Positions 28,835 through 43,806 of a stretch of DNA of 64,000 nucleotides are shown here, one piece after another. Position 1 is the stretch's first letter, and every line of letters starts with the position of its first letter. The DNA comes from a phage, in sequence record PZ445430.1. One strand, written 5' to 3'. Both the position numbers and the translations under genes were made by a program. The notes below the pieces were generated by a model. That model saw only the letters and a list, made by a program, of their open reading frames with translations. It was not told the DNA's origin and ran no database searches.

Positions 28835-29536
28835 ATGAAATTCAAGCCCTTTGGTATGCTGGACATTGAATCTCTAGGTACTCCAGGAAATTGCGGTACT
28901 ACTCATATTGCAATGCCTTCTTTCGCTTTTGTAGCGATGCACGGAATTGATAAAGATCCTGATCTGGTATTCGTTACTCTAGACGTTCAAGATCAGCTTA
29001 ATGCGGGTGCTAAGGTAACTGCCTCTACTATTGCATTCTGGATGGATCAAGCTAAAAACAGTCCATCTGCGCTCCATATTATGGAGGCTCTAAATGGTCG
29101 TAATCCTAAGCTGATTGCCTTCCGTGATGGTAAGCATCACTGCACTAATGACGTAGGCTCTAATTATGCTGCCTTCTCTATGGCTCAGAACATTATGGAA
29201 TTGTCTCTAGGAGATAATGCTCTGTATTACGGCAATGGCCCAGAGTTTGATATGACAATCTACTCTGCAAATACGTTCCATGCCGGAACCCATGAAGAAA
29301 TAGTTCCGTGGAAATTCTGGAACTTAGGTAACGTTCGATCTTTCCGTAATCAGTGGATGCAAGCTGGTTATAGCTATAAAGATCTAGAAGCCGAAGGTGC
29401 TAGCTGGGCAAAAGCTAAAATGGAAAAGATGGACACCATTCGTTATGGAATCTATCCTGTGAAGCATGATCCAGCATTCGATGCTTTAGTTGAAAGTTAT
29501 TGTGTAGCCGTCATGATCGAAAAAATCAAAATTTGA
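28835..29536 (+). CDS. putative DEDDh-type 3'-5' exonuclease
   Basis: 233 aa; Exo I-like MLDIESLGT and C-terminal H-x4-D (VKHDPAFD). Confidence 0.45.
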   Translation: MKFKPFGMLDIESLGTPGNCGTTHIAMPSFAFVAMHGIDKDPDLVFVTLDVQDQLNAGAKVTASTIAFWMDQAKNSPSALHIMEALNGRNPKLIAFRDGKHHCTNDVGSNYAAFSMAQNIMELSLGDNALYYGNGPEFDMTIYSANTFHAGTHEEIVPWKFWNLGNVRSFRNQWMQAGYSYKDLEAEGASWAKAKMEKMDTIRYGIYPVKHDPAFDALVESYCVAVMIEKIKI

Positions 29537-29537
29537 T

Positions 29538-29566
29538 TTGCTTTCAGCTCCAAAATTCTGTATAAT
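29538..29566 (+). promoter_or_regulatory. sigma70-type promoter
   Basis: TTGCTT, 17 bp, TATAAT. Confidence 0.6.
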
Positions 29567-29606
29567 ATATTCATAAATTTGAGAGAACAACAAAAGGAAA
29601 ATAATT

Positions 29607-29789
29607 ATGCCAGTATCTAAAAACGTCCGTAAAAATGGTAAAGTAGCAAAACGTAACCTGGGTCTGCGTCGTATGGCTGAGTGTCAGTCCGGCATCCAGA
29701 AAATCTTTAATGTACTGAATCGCGCCAACCCGAATATTGATAACAGTTCTGATACTGTTCTGCGCACTCTGCTGGCAATCGGTCTGTAA
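29607..29789 (+). CDS. small basic hypothetical protein
   Basis: 60 aa after promoter 29538-29566. Confidence 0.45.
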   Translation: MPVSKNVRKNGKVAKRNLGLRRMAECQSGIQKIFNVLNRANPNIDNSSDTVLRTLLAIGL

Positions 29790-29843
29790 TAGGCCGTTTT
29801 TAAAACAAATTCAAATCTCAAACTTCATATAAGGAAGCAAATA

Positions 29844-30482
29844 ATGACTACTCGTATCTCTAAAACTCGTGCTCTGGCAACTATCAAGTCTCTGGAAGCT
29901 AAAATCCGTAAAGCTACTGAACAACAGCTTTTGATCGCTGTTGGTGAAGGTAAGGACAAGAACCAAGTTGTCGTTGGCGCTGCAATCGAAGTAGATGCTC
30001 TGTCTACTCGTATTAAGACTGATTTCCAGTCTCTGCTGGATATGATGTCCCAGCGTGATCAGCTGAAAGCTGCGCTGATCAAGAGCAATGCTGAAACTGT
30101 TGTAGAGATCGGTTCTCGCTCTATGACTGTTGCGGAAGCAATCGAAGCTAAGCGTTCTATGGAACTCAAAGCTCAGTTGCTGGCTAACATGCGTAAGCAG
30201 TTCCATGCTGCTACTGTTAAGTTTAACACTCAGAAGGCTCAGTTTGACGCCAAGTATGAGCGTCTGCAGGATACCATGGCTACCCGCGACAAGAAGACTT
30301 CCGAGGATGAAGTTAAGATGCAGCTTAACCTGCTGGAACTCAAGAACACTCCGTTCCTGATCGATCCGCTGGAGCTAGAAAAGCTGATCAAGCAACACGA
30401 CGAAGAATACCAGGACTTTGCAACTAACGTTGACTTTGTTCTGTCTGAGTCCAACGCCTCTACTTTCATCGAAGTAGAGTAA
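29844..30482 (+). CDS. hypothetical coiled-coil protein
   Basis: 212 aa, GC-rich codon usage. Confidence 0.5.
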   Translation: MTTRISKTRALATIKSLEAKIRKATEQQLLIAVGEGKDKNQVVVGAAIEVDALSTRIKTDFQSLLDMMSQRDQLKAALIKSNAETVVEIGSRSMTVAEAIEAKRSMELKAQLLANMRKQFHAATVKFNTQKAQFDAKYERLQDTMATRDKKTSEDEVKMQLNLLELKNTPFLIDPLELEKLIKQHDEEYQDFATNVDFVLSESNASTFIEVE

Positions 30483-30862
30483 TAATTTAAAAGACTAGTA
30501 AATCGGTAGACGAAAGCCCAAGCATCTTACCTCGCAGCAGCGGTTGAAATACGAGGTTAAATAAGACCGCTGACCATACTATAAAGTATAATCTATTGGA
30601 GATTATGTTTATTACACCAGCCTCTTAAGCTGAACTGTAAAAACGGTCGTTGGTAGTACCAACACAACTTCAAAGATCAACGCTCAAGTATGAAAGCTGA
30701 AAAGTTAAAAGAACTCAAACTTCTAACCTTCTAAAGCTAAAAGATGCAAAGTATTCGTTGATGATTCAAACCCTAGATCAAAGGTACATGGCTCATAAGA
30801 TATGGCCTGTGGCGCCTCTAGGCTGTTTATCGGTTCACTAGTCTCTCAATTTAAAAATGTAT

Positions 30863-30891
30863 TTGCTAATTAGTTTAGTTTTCTATATAAT
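30863..30891 (+). promoter_or_regulatory. sigma70-type promoter
   Basis: TTGCTA, 17 bp, TATAAT. Confidence 0.55.
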
Positions 30892-30921
30892 ATATTTTTA
30901 AATTGATGAGACGAGGCTATT

Positions 30922-31239
30922 ATGATTTTTCATATTCTGATTGATGATGTTCGTGACCTGCATGGGATGGATATTATCATTCGAACCCCCGAAGCCGCTA
31001 TTGAGTTTCTGAATACAACCGATACCACCGGACATTTCGTTTATATGGATAATGATCTGGCTGTAGATGGTATGGAAGGTTATCAAATTCTTCGTTTACT
31101 CCTAGAATTTGGACAGAGACCCAAGAAAGTGGTACTAGTAACCTCGAACCCTGTAGCTAAGCAGAACATGCGTAATGATTTGCTTGACGAAGGGTATCAA
31201 GAAAGCCCTAATCGTATTGAGTACGATTGGCCGGAGTAA
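30922..31239 (+). CDS. hypothetical protein
   Basis: 105 aa after promoter 30863-30891. Confidence 0.5.
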   Translation: MIFHILIDDVRDLHGMDIIIRTPEAAIEFLNTTDTTGHFVYMDNDLAVDGMEGYQILRLLLEFGQRPKKVVLVTSNPVAKQNMRNDLLDEGYQESPNRIEYDWPE

Positions 31240-31244
31240 ATAAA

Positions 31245-31694
31245 ATGAAGGCAGCTTTGCTTCTAATAGCTGCCCTAACCTATAGCTTCAATAGTCATGC
31301 TACCTACGACTCAAAGCAGATTGATTGCATTGCAAAAAATATCTACTTCGAAGCACGAGGTGAGGGCACAAAGGGAATGATTGCAGTTGCACAGGTTACT
31401 AAAAACCGTGTAAACTCCGGTAAATTCCCTGATTCTTACTGTAAAGTAGTATATCAGTCTAACCAATTCAGCTGGACAGCTAAAAAACCTAGGGTTGATA
31501 AAACAGATGAGACTTGGCAAGTTGCTAAGAACTTAGCTAGAGTGATATACTACGTTGATTTACCACAAGATCCAACACAGGGGGCGTTATACTTCCATAG
31601 TGGTAAAGATAAACCGTACTGGACAAAGAAGTTTAAGAAAACAACGAAGATTCAAGGCCATACGTTCTACAAGCCTGTGGTTAAGAAAACTTAA
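31245..31694 (+). CDS. secreted cell-wall hydrolase, SleB-like domain
   Basis: Signal peptide MKAALLLIAALTYSFNSHA; blocks NIYFEARGE, VAQVTKNR, CKVVYQSNQFSW; ATG at 31245 is 8 nt after GGAG. Confidence 0.55.
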   Translation: MKAALLLIAALTYSFNSHATYDSKQIDCIAKNIYFEARGEGTKGMIAVAQVTKNRVNSGKFPDSYCKVVYQSNQFSWTAKKPRVDKTDETWQVAKNLARVIYYVDLPQDPTQGALYFHSGKDKPYWTKKFKKTTKIQGHTFYKPVVKKT

Positions 31695-31702
31695 AAATTC
31701 GA

Positions 31703-31731
31703 TTGCTTAAAGACTTAAATTTCTGTATAAT
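31703..31731 (+). promoter_or_regulatory. sigma70-type promoter
   Basis: TTGCTT, 17 bp, TATAAT. Confidence 0.6.
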
Positions 31732-31762
31732 ACTTTCATAAATTAATGAGAGGAAGCGAAAT

Positions 31763-31933
31763 ATGAAATCAGTTGTAATTATTGGTGTTAATACCCGTGG
31801 TATCCGTACTACGAAAACAGTTAAAACTACTAACGTTGCTGAAATTACTACAAACCCTAAGAAGTTTGATTTCGCCAAAGTCTCGGCAGTTATGACAGAA
31901 CAATCTTTTAACCAAGTACTGGGAATTAAATAA
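31763..31933 (+). CDS. small hypothetical protein (56 aa)
   Basis: ATG after promoter 31703-31731 and GAGAGGAAG RBS; below the ORF-track cutoff. Confidence 0.35.
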   Translation: MKSVVIIGVNTRGIRTTKTVKTTNVAEITTNPKKFDFAKVSAVMTEQSFNQVLGIK

Positions 31934-32376
31934 TGGAAGAAAATATTCTAAATGTTTTGCGTAGGGCTTTGCAGGAATCTAAGATTGATGGCTCTGATAA
32001 AGAGGTAGCTAAAAGCTACCAGACCATAATCGAAGATCTTCAGCGTGTTGATAAAGACTTCATTACTTCTGAACAGTTTGTGTCTTATCTCAAAGCTCAG
32101 CTGAAAAGCATTAATCAGACGAAAGCTAAACTTCATGGTCAAGACCTTGATAATTATAGCTTGCAGTCTGCTCAGTATGAATATATACTGAACAAATGGC
32201 TACAACAGTATCTGCCGCCTCAGCTTTCTGATTCTGAGATTCGCAAATACTTTGCAGAATTAGTTACGTTGAACCCTGGGATTACGAAGAGTATGCTGAT
32301 GAAAGCGATTAAGGAAGAATTCCCTGGTCGTTATGACGGTGGCATCGCTGCTCAGGTTGCTGGCGAATTTAACTAA
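31933..32376 (+). CDS. GatB/YqeY-domain protein
   Basis: 147 aa; QYLPPQLSDSEI and C-terminal GRYDGGIAAQV match the YqeY family pattern. Confidence 0.5.
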   Translation: MEENILNVLRRALQESKIDGSDKEVAKSYQTIIEDLQRVDKDFITSEQFVSYLKAQLKSINQTKAKLHGQDLDNYSLQSAQYEYILNKWLQQYLPPQLSDSEIRKYFAELVTLNPGITKSMLMKAIKEEFPGRYDGGIAAQVAGEFN

Positions 32377-32384
32377 AAATTGAT

Positions 32385-32413
32385 TTGCTAAACGCTTCAA
32401 AATTCTGTATAAT
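32385..32413 (+). promoter_or_regulatory. sigma70-type promoter heading the ORF-free 850 nt region
   Basis: TTGCTA, 17 bp, TATAAT, then the usual CATAAATTAGAGAACAG leader but no start codon. Confidence 0.6.
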
Positions 32414-32419
32414 AGATTC

Positions 32420-33272
32420 ATAAATTAGAGAACAGCGAGCCGATTACGCTGAGTGAGTTTAGTGATTCCTACTAGGATAGCTACTCCACTGAATAGAGTC
32501 GGTGAGTTGGAGACTAGTAAGTACTCTGAGAGAGGCTACGAGCTAACGCTTATTGCTATTGATAGGGAACTGAAAATCTGCGGAAAACTCGGGAGCTGTC
32601 CCGAAATCTCGTAAACTCTTCTCTAGTTTATGTTAGTGGGGTGTCGAACTGACTTATGTGATAACACTGCCGTCCTAGTATAAACGGTAATATCAAACCG
32701 TAACTGGTGGAAGATGCAGGTTCGAATCCTGCGGTCGGAAAGAATCAGATAACTCGGGCTTATACCGGATAAGCATTCGCTGCTGTAGTACATACTATGA
32801 CGGTTCAGGAGGTACGCCTCCTGATCAGTATTAGGTTAGAATCGAAACAGCTAAACCACGAGGAAACCTGACGGCCTCAACCAAACTCGGAACTCGGGAT
32901 CACTGCCTAGTGTGTACCCCGTTTAACCTGAGACTAGGCATCCAGCTTCGCATCGAAAATCGGAGGTGCGATTCTAACAGACCGCGTGAATATGAGAGTG
33001 GGAAACGCTGACATGAGAGATGTCACTAATGGTGCCCAATAGTACAGGTAATTCGCGATAATTCCTGTTGAGCGGCAGCAGTAGGCTGGGAGTCATGACC
33101 TAAGCCTAACCGAGTTCTTCACATACGGAGAACATAACCACAAAGTCACCCTGACTTAAACTGGAAGATATTGTCTGACGGAAGGGCTGCAGAGCTTAAT
33201 CTGAGGGGGCTGACCCTACCTACCGTCGGGTATCTTTAAGAGCTTTTATAAGAGTTCTTAAAAATACCTAAA
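32420..33272 (+). ncRNA. candidate large structured non-coding RNA (about 850 nt, promoter-driven, ORF-free)
   Basis: Promoter 32385-32413; no ORF of 60 aa or more on either strand; GC-richer than flanks; many local hairpins (e.g. GGAGGTACGCCTCC, CGGGAGCTGTCCCG); ends at tRNA-Arg. Confidence 0.35.
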
Positions 33273-38881: not shown

Positions 38882-38952
38882 TGGGGTACGCATAGGTTGC
38901 TAGTGGGCCTCCAAAACCCATGAAAAGGTTTCGAATACCTTTACCCCTGCCA
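38882..38952 (+). tRNA. tRNA-Trp (anticodon CCA)
   Basis: Anticodon loop CTCCAAA; T-arm AAGGT-TTCGAAT-ACCTT; 1:72 is an unpaired T:T; CCA. Confidence 0.6.
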
Positions 38953-40328: not shown

Positions 40329-40541
40329 AACATCAGAGCAGCGTGATGTACTGCAAAGACCCAAAGTCCGGGGTGGACTTCTTGATTCAAAGGAGCAGGC
40401 ATTAATTATCATTCTAGCGTGGTGGAGAGGGGACACCAGCTTGCCGAGGGTAGAAGCTCGTTCGATTCGAGTGAAAGAATGGTTCTCGTAAATCCGCACA
40501 AGTGATAGCAGGTTCAAGTCCTGCCTAGATTGACTTATTAT

Positions 40542-40615: not shown

Positions 40616-40863
40616 AATTTAGGTTTCTGCTTCCTAGAGAACTGACTCCTAGATAAACAAGGCGATGAGTTTCCGGCCGGTTCTAGTCGCTGAAAATCCT
40701 CCCGACCAGGTAGGTGTAAGTAAACGAAAGTTTACTTATTAAGTAAGTCCGACACATCGGCGGGTGTGTTCTAGTACTTAAAGAAGGTCTCGCAAACTTT
40801 CTCGCTAGCATGAGTTCATAGCTCGGTGACTTACCTAATAAGTAAATTTATTAAAAAATGTAG

Positions 40864-42294: not shown

Positions 42295-42557
42295 ATTTAT
42301 ATAAATCGATGAGGAGAAATCCTCATCAAAGTTCACTAAGGTATTAGCTCGACCTAGGACTGGCTGCCAACAAGCACAGTTGCAATTAGACCCCTAATGG
42401 CGGGGGGATACTTTGCAATAAGTTCTAGATTAGTCCACTAGATTCAGCGGCAACTGAATAGTGTATCGGGTTTGTGAAGAGCGGTTATCCTCTACTGGCT
42501 AATGTCTGAGGGTAATACGCACACCGAGCTAATAGCCTTAGTAAACTTAAAGATTTT

Positions 42558-43054: not shown

Positions 43055-43267
43055 ATGATGAAAACTCCTATAACTGATATCTGGTTAGCTGTTAATACGT
43101 TAACTAAAGAGTATGTGTTTATAGAGTATGGTCAGAGGTATGACCAAAAGATGTATAATCTCATACTTCCAGTATCCGCTAATGAAGTTTATGATTTAAT
43201 CCTGAGATCTACGGAAGAGCAAATCGACTTGGTGACGAAAACCACTTGGAAAGTGGCTGACTTGTGA
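43055..43267 (+). CDS. doubtful small ORF overlapping tRNA-Ser
   Basis: 70 aa ORF whose last 55 nt overlap the tRNA at 43213-43305. Confidence 0.2.
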   Translation: MMKTPITDIWLAVNTLTKEYVFIEYGQRYDQKMYNLILPVSANEVYDLILRSTEEQIDLVTKTTWKVADL

Positions 43268-43305
43268 AAGCAGGCTTGAGAGTTCGAATCTCTCTTCTTC
43301 CGCCA
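43213..43305 (+). tRNA. tRNA-Ser (anticodon GGA), class II
   Basis: Acceptor GGAAGAG/TTCTTCC, anticodon loop TTGGAAA, long variable arm, T-arm GAGAG-TTCGAAT-CTCTC, discriminator G, CCA. Confidence 0.6.
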
Positions 43306-43319
43306 AACAAAATTTATAG

Positions 43320-43414
43320 GGTAGGTCAATCCAACGGCTGGCGCTGGACTCCGACTTGAAATCGGTTGATCGTAGTGATACGGTGTAAGGGTTCGATCCC
43401 CTTACCTACCCCCA
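43320..43414 (+). tRNA. tRNA-Ser (anticodon TGA), class II
   Basis: Acceptor GGTAGGT/ACCTACC, anticodon stem CCGA/TCGG loop CTTGAAA, long variable arm, T-arm AAGGG-TTCGATC-CCCTT, CCA. Confidence 0.6.
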
Positions 43415-43729
43415 AATCTTGAAGTATGCCGGAATCGGTAGACGGGGCTTCCTAAAGGGCGTAAGAGGAACATCCACTCCTCATAAGATACCCGAAAACG
43501 AGGCTGAGATAAATGGTCTATCTCGTGAAGGTTCAAGTCCTTCTGCTTCTTGATATTCAATGGCTCAAAGAGTAACGGTGCACCTTTCTAGAGAATTTTC
43601 TGGGCGAGAATCCAGAAGTAATCAACTAGTTGTTAGTGTGATGAGTTTCGGAGAGCCGCCACAATTGAAGTCTTTAGAATGGGTATCGCCCTTTAGCCCC
43701 TCCGAAAGGGATAACTAGAGATTTCAATT

Positions 43730-43806
43730 GTGGCTATATCATAATTGGTTAATGATCCTGATTGTGAATCAGGCCTATGTGGATTCGAATTCCACTAGCC
43801 ACCCCA
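43730..43806 (+). tRNA. tRNA-His (anticodon GTG)
   Basis: Acceptor GTGGCTA/TAGCCAC, D-arm TCAT-AATTGGTTA-ATGA, anticodon stem CCTGA/TCAGG loop TTGTGAA, T-arm GTGGA-TTCGAAT-TCCAC, discriminator C, CCA. Confidence 0.7.

What the first reader, a model, noticed from the sequence alone, without database searches (positions are those of the whole stretch)
43420..43551. A 130 nt tRNA-like element with Leu-type D-arm and T-arm but an over-long middle
The D-arm CCG-GAATCGGTAGA-CGG is almost identical to the tRNA-Leu D-arm, and a canonical T-arm GAAGG-TTCAAGT-CCTTC lies about 80 nt downstream. Roughly 40 nt more than any tRNA can hold separates them, and no CCA end is present. It could be a tRNA interrupted by an insertion or a distinct tRNA-derived structured RNA.
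Basis: seen in the sequence. Interest (0 to 1): 0.5.

Follow-up and report, generated by a model that had tools for sequence, protein, structure and literature searches.

The report
Phage T5 "RNA1" tRNA-like RNA
This is the copy, in a T5-like coliphage, of a long-annotated "tRNA-like stable RNA of unknown function" (T5 RNA1): a leucine-tRNA body whose anticodon loop has been replaced by a conserved extra arm, so it cannot decode and its job is still unknown.

Summary
Window 43420-43551 folds as a class-II (tRNA-Leu-type) cloverleaf. It has an acceptor stem, a Leu-type D arm, a 5-bp anticodon-stem equivalent, a long variable arm and a canonical T arm. A 48-nt structured insert sits where the 7-nt anticodon loop should be, and no CCA is encoded.

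The element is not new. The window is Escherichia phage SuperGirl (Demerecviridae). The element is the 82%-identical orthologue of misc_RNA rna1 in the phage T5 record ("tRNA-like stable RNA with unknown functions") and in the BF23 record. It is unannotated in SuperGirl.

Across 29 distinct orthologues, 94% of pair cells are paired, against 35-47% in slid controls. Fifteen pairs show compensatory changes, including pairs in the insert helices. The insert's 8-nt loop ACAUCCAC and the variable-arm loop AAAUGGUC are essentially invariant.

No anticodon is conserved and the overlapping ORF is broken in relatives. The element is therefore not a spliced tRNA, a pseudogene, a coding gene or two adjacent elements.

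Most likely it is matured and stabilised like a tRNA and displays the extra arm to an unknown partner. A decoy or counter-defence role is speculation. A T5 deletion covering rna1 is viable.

Verdict: already known kind, function open.

The parts
43418..43561 (+). Whole RNA1 orthologue, using the boundaries of the T5 annotation (144 nt). It starts 3 nt after the CCA of tRNA-Ser(UGA) and ends just before the 5' GGCUC of the RNAI orthologue.
   Evidence: 82% identity over its full length to NC_005859 misc_RNA rna1/T5s03, 30501-30644. The same feature is annotated in BF23, AJ604530. The covariance model R1 scores it at 161 bits.
43420..43426 (+). Acceptor stem, 5' strand (UGAAGUA). It pairs with 43544-43550. 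Position 1-72 is a U.U mismatch.
   Evidence: Alignment columns 4-10 pair with 128-134. Four of the 7 pairs show changes on both sides. Klebsiella phage copies have an entirely different sequence here that still pairs.
43429..43445 (+). D arm: a 3-bp stem CCG/CGG with loop GAAUCGGUAGA, of tRNA-Leu type and carrying G18G19. It is preceded by U8 and G9 (43427-43428).
   Evidence: Nearly invariant in 29 orthologues. It matches the tRNA-Leu D arms of cyanophages.
43446..43451 (+). G26.U44-like pair plus the 5-bp anticodon-stem equivalent, 5' strand (GGCUUC). It pairs with 43500-43505 (GAGGCU).
   Evidence: Columns 30-35 pair with 84-89. 99% of cells are paired and 3 pairs change on both sides, for example GGCUUC/GAGGCU against GACUGC/GCGGUU in T5.
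43452..43499 (+). 48-nt insert in place of the 7-nt anticodon loop. From outside in: an internal loop, helix P2 (43457-43459 with 43491-43493), a second internal loop, and hairpin P3 (43465-43469 with 43478-43482).
   Evidence: P2 columns 41-43/75-77 occur as GGG/CCC, AGG/CCU and GAG/CUC. P3 columns 49-53/62-66 are 99% paired, with 3 pairs changing on both sides (GAGGA/UCCUC, UAGGA/UCCUA, GCAGA/UCUGC).
43470..43477 (+). Terminal 8-nt loop of P3, ACAUCCAC.
   Evidence: Identical in 28 of 29 distinct orthologues. T5 has ACAUCCGC.
43500..43505 (+). Anticodon-stem equivalent, 3' strand (GAGGCU).
   Evidence: See the entry for 43446-43451.
43506..43524 (+). Long variable arm: a 6-bp stem GAGAUA/UAUCUC with 7-nt loop AAUGGUC (43512-43518).
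   Evidence: Columns 90-95 pair with 103-108 and are 100% paired. Two pairs change on both sides (A-U to U-A or C-G; G-C to A-U). The loop is invariant.
43527..43543 (+). T arm: GAAGG-UUCAAGU-CCUUC.
   Evidence: 100% paired. U54, U55, C56, A58 and the G53-C61 pair are invariant. The promoter/terminator scan also picks it up as a hairpin followed by a T-rich run.
43544..43550 (+). Acceptor stem, 3' strand (UGCUUCU).
43551..43561 (+). 'Discriminator' U plus the 3' trailer UGAUAUUCAAU. No CCA is present. C43418 can pair with G43552, which extends the closing stem past two U.U mismatches.
   Evidence: Sequence. A constrained fold adds the outer pairs. The T5 annotation includes this trailer in RNA1.

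Best explanation
The element is the SuperGirl orthologue of phage T5/BF23 gene rna1 ('RNA1'). It is a non-coding, non-decoding RNA derived from a class-II tRNA-Leu.

Shown here:
- It keeps a tRNA body. This comprises a closing acceptor stem, U8, a Leu-type D arm with G18G19, a G26.U44-like pair, a 5-bp anticodon stem, a long variable arm, and a T arm with U54-U55-C56 and A58.
- The anticodon loop is replaced by a 48-nt two-helix extension (P2, P3). The extension is capped by an essentially invariant loop, ACAUCCAC.
- The stems covary, while the two distal loops (P3 and variable arm) and the D and T loops that form the elbow are frozen.
- It sits inside the early tRNA gene cluster, 3 nt after tRNA-Ser(UGA). 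Downstream follow the RNAI and RNAIII orthologues and tRNA-His.

Inferred:
- It is co-transcribed with the tRNAs.
- The tRNA elbow and the acceptor/T-stem stack let RNase P and the 3' trimming exonucleases cut it out, and let it persist as a stable RNA. It would be a natural 'tRNA scaffold'.
- Because it has no anticodon loop, no CCA, a U.U at position 1-72 and U (not A) at position 73, it is neither charged by LeuRS nor used by the ribosome.
- The functional surface is the displayed arm with its invariant loop, possibly together with the invariant variable-arm loop. This surface would bind an unknown protein or RNA partner.

My best guess for that partner (speculative, about 25%) is a tRNA-binding host factor. 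In that case RNA1 would act as a tRNA mimic or decoy in the phage-host conflict over tRNAs.
For: Identity:
- 100% identity to MZ501105.
- 82% identity over the full length to T5 rna1, annotated 'tRNA-like stable RNA with unknown functions'. The same annotation is in BF23.
- The gene order is the same: tRNA-Ser2, tRNA-Ser1, RNA1, RNAI, RNAIII, tRNA-His.

Structure:
- 29 distinct orthologues give 94.3% paired cells against 35-47% in slid controls. Fifteen pairs have compensatory changes, which 0 of 500 shuffles reach (one search gives the same result for 17 sequences).
- The proposed fold is within 3-5 kcal/mol of the MFE.

Leu-type body:
- The covariance model's next-best hits are tRNA-Leu genes in the window, T4 and phage Stubb.
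- ARAGORN -i calls a class-II tRNA with a 41-nt insert.
- blastn matches the D arm to tRNA-Leu genes.

Not decoding: the formal anticodon is inconsistent among orthologues and there is no CCA.

Not coding: the 44-aa ORF is broken by stops or a frameshift in T5, L003, Pectobacterium and Klebsiella copies.

Widespread and single-copy: 493 phage records carry it, with one hit per genome.

Same design elsewhere: T5 RNA2, whose orthologue is at window 40410-40534, is also a tRNA body with a structured insert at the anticodon position.

Context for a tRNA-conflict role: T5 tRNA-Lys neutralises the PARIS defence system (PMC11464382). Septu cleaves the variable loop of the class-II tRNA-Tyr (PMC13096335).
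Against: - No experiment or expression data could be examined here. 'Stable RNA' rests on the wording of the T5 and BF23 GenBank annotations. The exact ends are unknown.
- The T5 annotation starts RNA1 two nucleotides upstream of the canonical RNase P position.
- The closing stem can be read as 10 bp with two U.U mismatches. In Klebsiella phages it is 13 bp. That is not a standard RNase P substrate geometry.
- The T5-123 deletion (29191-32442) removes rna1 and the phage is viable (PMC11464382). Any function is therefore conditional.
- No partner was identified. Complements of the invariant loops are not enriched in the window.
- A possible loop-loop contact, CCA/UGG, cannot be tested because both loops are invariant.
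- The decoy idea has no direct support.
Confidence: 0.6

Rival explanations
1. A cis-acting processing or stability module. In this reading the tRNA-like fold only serves as punctuation in the polycistronic tRNA/RNAI/RNAIII precursor, for example as an RNase P entry site, a protective 3' structure or a weak attenuator. The excised RNA would be a by-product with no function in trans.
For: - It is embedded between tRNAs and other stable RNAs with spacers of only 3-11 nt.
- The T arm followed by a U-rich strand is flagged as terminator-like.
- The deletion mutant is viable.
Against: - Punctuation would not require a 48-nt covarying extension with an invariant 8-nt loop, nor an invariant variable-arm loop.
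- In T5 and in Klebsiella phages the element is not directly adjacent to an upstream tRNA, yet it is conserved.
- The T-arm hairpin is only 5 bp, and the downstream tRNA-His has no annotated promoter of its own in T5.
Confidence: 0.15
2. After 3' trimming and CCA addition by the host enzyme, the RNA is aminoacylated. It would then act as an amino-acid-carrying tRNA-like molecule outside normal decoding.
For: - The complete tRNA elbow and acceptor/T-stem stack are substrates in principle for the CCA-adding enzyme (established enzymology, not tested here).
- E. coli LeuRS ignores the anticodon and the variable arm (established knowledge).
- The D arm is Leu-type.
Against: - No CCA is encoded, whereas the neighbouring tRNAs do encode it.
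- Position 73 is U in all Escherichia and Salmonella phage copies. A73 is the major LeuRS determinant (established knowledge).
- Position 1-72 is a U.U mismatch.
Confidence: 0.05
3. A functional tRNA gene interrupted by an intron that is spliced out to give a decoding tRNA (Leu or Phe).
For: ARAGORN with introns allowed reports a tRNA with a 41-nt intron. In the T5 subgroup the 3' side of the insert reads CUUAAAA, which looks like a tRNA-Leu(UAA) anticodon loop.
Against: - The called anticodon (aaa, taa, aac) and the intron position (33-39) differ between close orthologues.
- An insert of 41-48 nt is much shorter than any group I intron, and Rfam gives no intron hit.
- Bacteria lack the bulge-helix-bulge splicing pathway (established knowledge).
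- The insert itself is under structural selection.
- There is no CCA, position 73 is U and position 1-72 is a mismatch.
Confidence: 0.03
4. A decaying tRNA-Leu pseudogene with no function.
For: The tRNA-like sequence cannot decode. The region is dispensable in the laboratory.
Against: - It is present in 493 phage records across several genera.
- Fifteen pairs have compensatory substitutions and the loops are invariant.
- The Klebsiella phage copies are 92-93% identical over the core despite a different genus, which indicates exchange and retention.
Confidence: 0.03
5. A small protein-coding gene, or two unrelated elements that merely lie side by side.
For: A 44-aa TTG ORF spans 43419-43553. 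Some records annotate a 'hypothetical protein' over the element.
Against: The ORF is interrupted in T5, L003/L010, L012, L015 and others. The substitutions preserve base pairs rather than codons. The 5' and 3' ends pair and covary, so it is one element.
Confidence: 0.01

Closest known systems
Phage T5 / BF23 rna1 (RNA1; T5s03), 'tRNA-like stable RNA with unknown functions'
   Same: It is the orthologue. Identity is 82% over the full length. The predicted fold is the same, with compensatory changes. It has the same neighbours (tRNA-Ser pair upstream; RNAI, RNAIII and tRNA-His downstream) and the same 144-nt span.
   Different: - It is unannotated in the SuperGirl record.
- Here it follows tRNA-Ser(UGA) directly, whereas in T5 a 174-nt ORF (T5.063) lies between them.
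- The helix sequences differ: acceptor, anticodon stem, P2, and the P3 closing pair.
Bacterial and phage class-II tRNA-Leu
   Same: The D arm GGAAUYGGUAGAC, the 3-bp D stem, the long variable arm, the T arm GGUUCAAGUCC and the overall cloverleaf are shared. tRNA-Leu genes are the best non-self hits of the element's covariance model.
   Different: - A 48-nt two-helix extension replaces the 7-nt anticodon loop.
- There is no conserved anticodon.
- There is no CCA, position 73 is U rather than A, and position 1-72 is U.U.
- The Rfam tRNA model does not score it.
T5 rna2 (RNA2, 125 nt, 'tRNA-like stable RNA'; orthologue at window 40410-40534)
   Same: The design principle is the same and it lies in the same tRNA cluster. 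It has an acceptor stem, D arm and T arm, with a structured insert of about 58 nt where the anticodon loop should be. One hairpin, GAG..AAUGGU..CUCGU, resembles the RNA1 variable arm.
   Different: It has a class-I-like body with a short variable region. The insert has a different, branched architecture. No sequence homology was detectable with model R1.
Phage T4 rnaC (species 1 RNA, 139 nt)
   Same: It is a stable RNA of unknown function encoded at the end of a phage tRNA cluster and is of similar size. It has a canonical T arm and a long variable-arm-like hairpin. ARAGORN -i sees a degenerate Leu-like tRNA in its 3' 95 nt. Its role is still unknown (PMC3014915 and PMC9697503).
   Different: Sequence homology is not significant (13 bits, partial). 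The extra sequence in rnaC is a 5' extension rather than an anticodon-loop insert. It is expressed late in T4.
Engineered 'tRNA scaffold' for recombinant RNA expression (Ponchon & Dardel; cited from my own knowledge)
   Same: A foreign hairpin replaces the anticodon loop of a tRNA, so that the cell processes and stabilises the chimera like a tRNA.
   Different: That construct is man-made. Whether RNA1 is matured the same way has not been tested.
tmRNA tRNA-like domain and bacterial Y RNA (YrlA) tRNA-like module
   Same: Both are non-decoding RNAs that reuse tRNA acceptor/T-arm or elbow geometry to engage tRNA-binding proteins.
   Different: - There is no ARAGORN tmRNA call and no Rfam hit.
- RNA1 has a full D arm and a variable arm, no ORF and no pseudoknots.
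- It has no Ro-binding stem.
- Its tRNA-like part is formed by the termini, not by an internal domain.

Membership tests
T5-type RNA1 (rna1) of Demerecviridae | Full-length sequence homology to T5 rna1 (NC_005859 30501-30644) | tested here: met
   82% identity over 144 nt by blastn, with the annotated rna1 feature under the match. Pairwise alignment.
T5-type RNA1 (rna1) of Demerecviridae | Conserved position in the tRNA cluster: after the tRNA-Ser(GGA)/tRNA-Ser(UGA) pair and before RNAI, RNAIII and tRNA-His | tested here: met
   SuperGirl, T5 and BF23 annotations and the alignment. The ends of the RNAI orthologue are conserved at 43562-43661.
T5-type RNA1 (rna1) of Demerecviridae | Shared secondary structure | tested here: met
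   Covariation across 29 orthologues, T5 included. Model R1 scores the window copy at 161 bits.
T5-type RNA1 (rna1) of Demerecviridae | Accumulates as a discrete stable RNA in infected cells | not testable with these tools
   This rests only on the wording of the T5 and BF23 GenBank annotations. The original papers are not in the held library.
Canonical tRNA (Rfam RF00005) | Acceptor stem, D arm and T arm with the conserved elbow nucleotides | tested here: met
   ARAGORN -i cloverleaf. U8, A14, G18G19, U54-U55-C56, A58 and G53-C61 are invariant.
Canonical tRNA (Rfam RF00005) | 7-nt anticodon loop with a conserved anticodon | tested here: not met
   A 48-nt insert takes its place. The formal anticodons differ among orthologues. 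There is no RF00005 hit even at E<=10, and default ARAGORN gives no call.
Canonical tRNA (Rfam RF00005) | 3' CCA end, either encoded or added | tested here: inconclusive
   CCA is not encoded. Post-transcriptional addition cannot be tested here.
tRNA-Leu (E. coli LeuRS substrate) | A73 discriminator and a paired 1-72 position | tested here: not met
   Position 73 is U and position 1-72 is U.U in all Escherichia, Salmonella and Pectobacterium phage copies. The identity rule comes from established knowledge.
Group I intron-containing tRNA-Leu | A self-splicing intron of at least ~200 nt with P1-P9 inserted in the anticodon loop | tested here: not met
   The insert is 41-48 nt. No Rfam intron family matches.
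tmRNA | tRNA-like domain plus tag ORF and pseudoknots | tested here: not met
   ARAGORN, which also searches for tmRNA, reports none. No Rfam tmRNA hit.
Bacterial Y RNA / YrlA | A Ro-binding terminal stem with an internal tRNA-like module, matching the Rfam model | tested here: not met
   No Rfam match at E<=10. The termini form the acceptor stem rather than a Ro-binding helix.

The most novel reading that the evidence does not exclude
RNA1 is a dedicated phage counter-defence or host-takeover RNA. In this reading it is a tRNA-Leu-shaped decoy whose invariant extension loop and variable-arm loop capture or inhibit a host tRNA-binding protein. Candidates would be a tRNA-cleaving immune nuclease that recognises class-II tRNAs, or a tRNA-processing or tRNA-modifying enzyme. 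RNA1 would be one of a small family of natural 'tRNA-scaffold' effector RNAs, together with RNA2 and possibly T4 rnaC.
Probability: 0.2. Interest if true: 0.7.

Novelty: already known. Interest (0 to 1): 0.3.

Why it matters
The element itself is not a discovery. It has been annotated in the T5 and BF23 records as RNA1 for about 20 years.

What this analysis adds:
- a covariation-backed secondary structure;
- a clear tRNA-Leu ancestry;
- the finding that the anticodon loop was replaced by a conserved arm with an invariant loop;
- its distribution: 493 T5-like phage records, cassette-like sharing with Klebsiella Sugarlandvirus, and absence from Proteus Novosibvirus;
- the observation that genome annotations routinely miss it or call a spurious ORF over it.

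It has no Rfam family. Its function is a long-standing small open question in model phages, as is that of T5 RNA2 and of T4 RNAC/RNAD. Phage tRNAs are now known to counter tRNA-cleaving defences. That makes these tRNA-shaped non-decoding RNAs reasonable candidates for a related role, and the invariant loops give concrete mutational targets.

Tried and rejected
1. Collection scans for more distant relatives.
- The first pattern had a miscounted spacer and found nothing.
- Looser patterns on viral, genome and metagenome collections were saturated by chance matches. Screening all 399 fetched loci with nhmmer recovered only T5-like copies plus one metagenome contig. blastn against 5,426 E. coli genomes found nothing.

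2. Trans targets of the invariant loops. The complements GTGGATGT and GACCATTT are not enriched in the window.

3. Pairing with the RNAIII-like region. A 10-nt complementarity between the insert (43452-43461) and that region (43687-43696) has an E-value of about 2 and is not conserved in T5. Rejected.

4. A tRNA-Trp surrogate. The UCCA in the P3 loop suggested this because ARAGORN found no tRNA-Trp. Rejected: T5 has tRNA-Trp and the window has its orthologue at about 38882-38952.

5. Mimicry of the 16S rRNA 3' end (anti-Shine-Dalgarno sequence) by AUCCACUCCU. Rejected because the UCCU part is a stem strand that changes to UCUG in Klebsiella copies.

6. A tertiary loop-loop contact, CCA (43474-43476) with UGG (43514-43516). 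It is compatible in all sequences, including the T5 A-to-G change. Both loops are invariant, so there is no covariation evidence. Left open.

7. A repeat or mobile-hairpin origin of the insert. No other copy exists in the window.

8. Homology with T4 rnaC. It is not significant.

9. Literature. No held paper discusses the function of T5 RNA1. The 2018 T5 deletion paper is not held.

Full report
**What the window is.** Window 43200-43740 is 100% identical to Escherichia phage SuperGirl (MZ501105; Demerecviridae, Epseptimavirus), a T5-like phage. The finding lies in the large early tRNA cluster. ARAGORN finds 27 tRNAs at 33.2-45.7 kb. It also misses some, described below.

**The observation.**
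- The D arm CCG-GAAUCGGUAGA-CGG is at 43429-43445.
- The T arm GAAGG-UUCAAGU-CCUUC is at 43527-43543, 81 nt further on.
- The acceptor 3' strand is followed by U-UGAUAUUCAAU and not by CCA.
- Default ARAGORN and the Rfam tRNA model do not report the element, even at E<=10.

**It is a known gene.** A blastn search of the phage collection finds the element in 493 records. The counts by the first word of the organism name are Salmonella 263, Escherichia 122 and Klebsiella 71, plus Citrobacter, Yersinia, Shigella and Pectobacterium. In the T5 reference (NC_005859) the matching stretch, 30501-30644, is annotated misc_RNA rna1/T5s03, 'RNA1, tRNA-like stable RNA with unknown functions'. RNAI, RNAIII and tRNA-His follow it, and the two tRNA-Ser genes precede it. 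The BF23 tRNA-region record carries the same annotation. The window has the same order. With T5-style boundaries the orthologue is 43418-43561, 144 nt as in T5. The SuperGirl record leaves it unannotated. Other records leave it blank or call a 'hypothetical protein' over it.

**Structure.** I aligned first 17 and then 29 distinct orthologues (A2, A3) and counted pairs for a structure read off the sequences. The parts are:
- an acceptor stem, 43420-43426 with 43544-43550;
- U8 and G9;
- a 3-bp D stem;
- a G26.U44-like pair plus a 5-bp anticodon-stem equivalent, 43446-43451 with 43500-43505;
- a 48-nt insert (43452-43499) made of an internal loop, helix P2, a second internal loop and hairpin P3;
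- a 6-bp variable arm (43506-43524);
- the T arm.

94.3% of cells are standard pairs, against 35-47% when partners are slid by 1-3 columns. Fifteen pairs change on both sides, which 0 of 500 shuffles reach. Compensatory changes occur in the acceptor stem (4 pairs), the anticodon stem (3), P2 (3), P3 (3) and the variable arm (2). The D and T stems are invariant and therefore uninformative.

Klebsiella (Sugarlandvirus) copies have a completely different closing-stem sequence that still pairs, 12 of 13 positions.

By contrast, several single-stranded parts are frozen: the P3 loop ACAUCCAC (one A-to-G in T5), the variable-arm loop AAUGGUC, the D loop, and the T-loop core (U54-U55-C56, A58). The proposed fold costs -35 to -38 kcal/mol against an MFE of -40.7. 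That gap is normal for tRNAs, whose D arm depends on tertiary contacts. The shuffle z-score of the single sequence is only -1.5.

**Ancestry.** A covariance model built from the alignment (R1) finds one copy per T5-like genome, at 133-168 bits. Its next-best hits are tRNA-Leu genes: 38.9 and 33.6 bits in the window, 36.9 in T4, 46.2 in Proteus phage Stubb, and 51 for a tRNA-Leu(UAA) on an unrelated viral contig. Other tRNAs score lower. The only weak blastn hits outside the family for the 5' part are the D arms of cyanophage tRNA-Leu genes. The body is therefore a class-II, Leu-type tRNA.

**What it is not.**
- Not a spliced tRNA. The 'anticodon' and 'intron position' that ARAGORN must assume differ among close relatives (aaa, taa, aac; positions 33-39). 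The insert is far shorter than a group I intron, and the insert itself is under structural selection.
- Not a pseudogene. The covariation and the distribution argue against it.
- Not coding. The 44-aa ORF at 43419-43553 is broken by stops or by a 1-nt indel in T5, L003/L010, Pectobacterium and Klebsiella copies.
- Not two elements. The ends pair and covary.
- Not a likely LeuRS substrate. Position 73 is U, position 1-72 is U.U, and no CCA is encoded. The identity rules come from established knowledge.

**Range.** No copy was found in the tRNA region of Proteus phage Stubb (Novosibvirus) with filters off. None was found in 5,426 E. coli genomes by blastn. The Klebsiella copies are 92-93% identical to the SuperGirl type over the core, although T5 itself is only 82% identical. 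This suggests exchange of the element between genera.

**How it probably works.**
- Shown: a tRNA-shaped, covarying, non-decoding RNA gene inside a tRNA operon.
- Inferred from tRNA biology: the elbow and the acceptor/T-stem stack should recruit RNase P and 3' exonucleases, and should make the product stable. This is like the engineered tRNA scaffolds in which a hairpin replaces the anticodon loop. The extension with its invariant loop, perhaps together with the invariant variable-arm loop, would then be the working surface.
- Speculative: the partner may be a host tRNA-binding factor. T5 tRNAs are already known to defeat tRNA-cleaving defences (PARIS; PMC11464382). A defence that cuts the variable loop of a class-II tRNA is also known (Septu; PMC13096335).
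- Against any essential role: the T5-123 deletion (29191-32442) removes rna1 and is viable.
- I found no target by complementarity. A possible CCA/UGG loop-loop contact cannot be tested because both loops are invariant.

**Comparison with what is known.**
- The T5 record lists eight stable RNAs of unknown function, including a second 'tRNA-like' one, RNA2.
- The window carries the RNA2 orthologue at 40410-40534. It has the same design: a tRNA body with a structured insert at the anticodon position.
- T4 rnaC (139 nt) also has a T arm and a variable-arm-like hairpin, but it is not detectably homologous.
- The roles of T4 RNAC and RNAD are still described as unknown (PMC3014915 and PMC9697503).
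- No paper in the held library addresses the function of T5 RNA1.

**Verdict.** The element is an already known and annotated kind (T5 RNA1) whose function remains open. Interest is modest.

Noticed in passing
window 40410-40534 (+): This is the orthologue (89.6%) of T5 rna2, a second 'tRNA-like stable RNA with unknown functions'. It has an 8-bp acceptor stem, a D arm, a T arm and a short variable region. A structured insert of about 58 nt sits where the anticodon loop should be. One hairpin, GAGUGAAAGAAUGGUUCUCGU, resembles the RNA1 variable arm GAGAUAAAUGGUCUAUCUCGU. Neither ARAGORN nor Rfam detects it.
   Followed up: partly
window 43562-43661 and 43666-43728 (+): These are the orthologues of T5 RNAI and of a shortened RNAIII. 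RNAI starts 5' GGCUC and ends GAGCC-G-CCA 3', a tRNA-like terminus. The SuperGirl CDS bas29_0121 (43560-43718, 52 aa) is called on top of them. T5 differs in this stretch by indels of 7, 8 and 51 nt, so the CDS is doubtful.
   Followed up: partly
window 43658-43672 with 43720-43734: A 15-bp inverted repeat, GCCACAAUUGAAGUC with GAUUUCAAUUGUGGC, is conserved in T5. It pairs the 3' GCCA end of RNAI and the spacer with the 5' acceptor strand of tRNA-His, enclosing the RNAIII-like segment. It could be a precursor-processing helix.
   Followed up: no
window 43213-43305, 43320-43414 and ~38882-38952 (+): Three genuine tRNAs are missed by default ARAGORN. tRNA-Ser(GGA) and tRNA-Ser(UGA) are also below the Rfam gathering score; they are hit only by the tRNA-Sec model at 26.5 and 38.3 bits, and the SuperGirl record annotates both. 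The third is an atypical 71-nt tRNA-Trp(CCA), the orthologue of T5 tRNAW.
   Followed up: partly
window 42342-42477 and 40748-40799 (+): Matches to T5 RNA2H (77% over 136 nt) and to part of RNAIV (81% over 53 nt). Both are further 'stable RNAs with unknown functions' in the T5 annotation.
   Followed up: no
L014 591-729, L015 591-729 and L121 9542-9680 (Klebsiella Sugarlandvirus phages): The RNA1 core is 92-93% identical to the SuperGirl type, closer than T5 itself at 82%. The flanks are unrelated and form a 13-bp closing stem with one G.G mismatch, and the element is not adjacent to a tRNA. This suggests cassette-like horizontal exchange of the element between phage genera.
   Followed up: partly
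L159 1909-2047 (-) (phage T4 rnaC): The 3' 95 nt of T4 species 1 RNA are called by ARAGORN -i as a degenerate class-II, Leu(taa)-like tRNA. The call includes an acceptor stem, a long variable-arm-like hairpin and a canonical T arm. A 5' extension of about 45 nt precedes this part.
   Followed up: partly
window 32669-32740 (+): A weak tRNA-like match, at 29.3 bits right at the Rfam gathering score, that ARAGORN does not call. It may be a degenerate tRNA or another tRNA-like RNA; T5 annotates a 'putative tRNA-like RNA3' elsewhere in the cluster.
   Followed up: no
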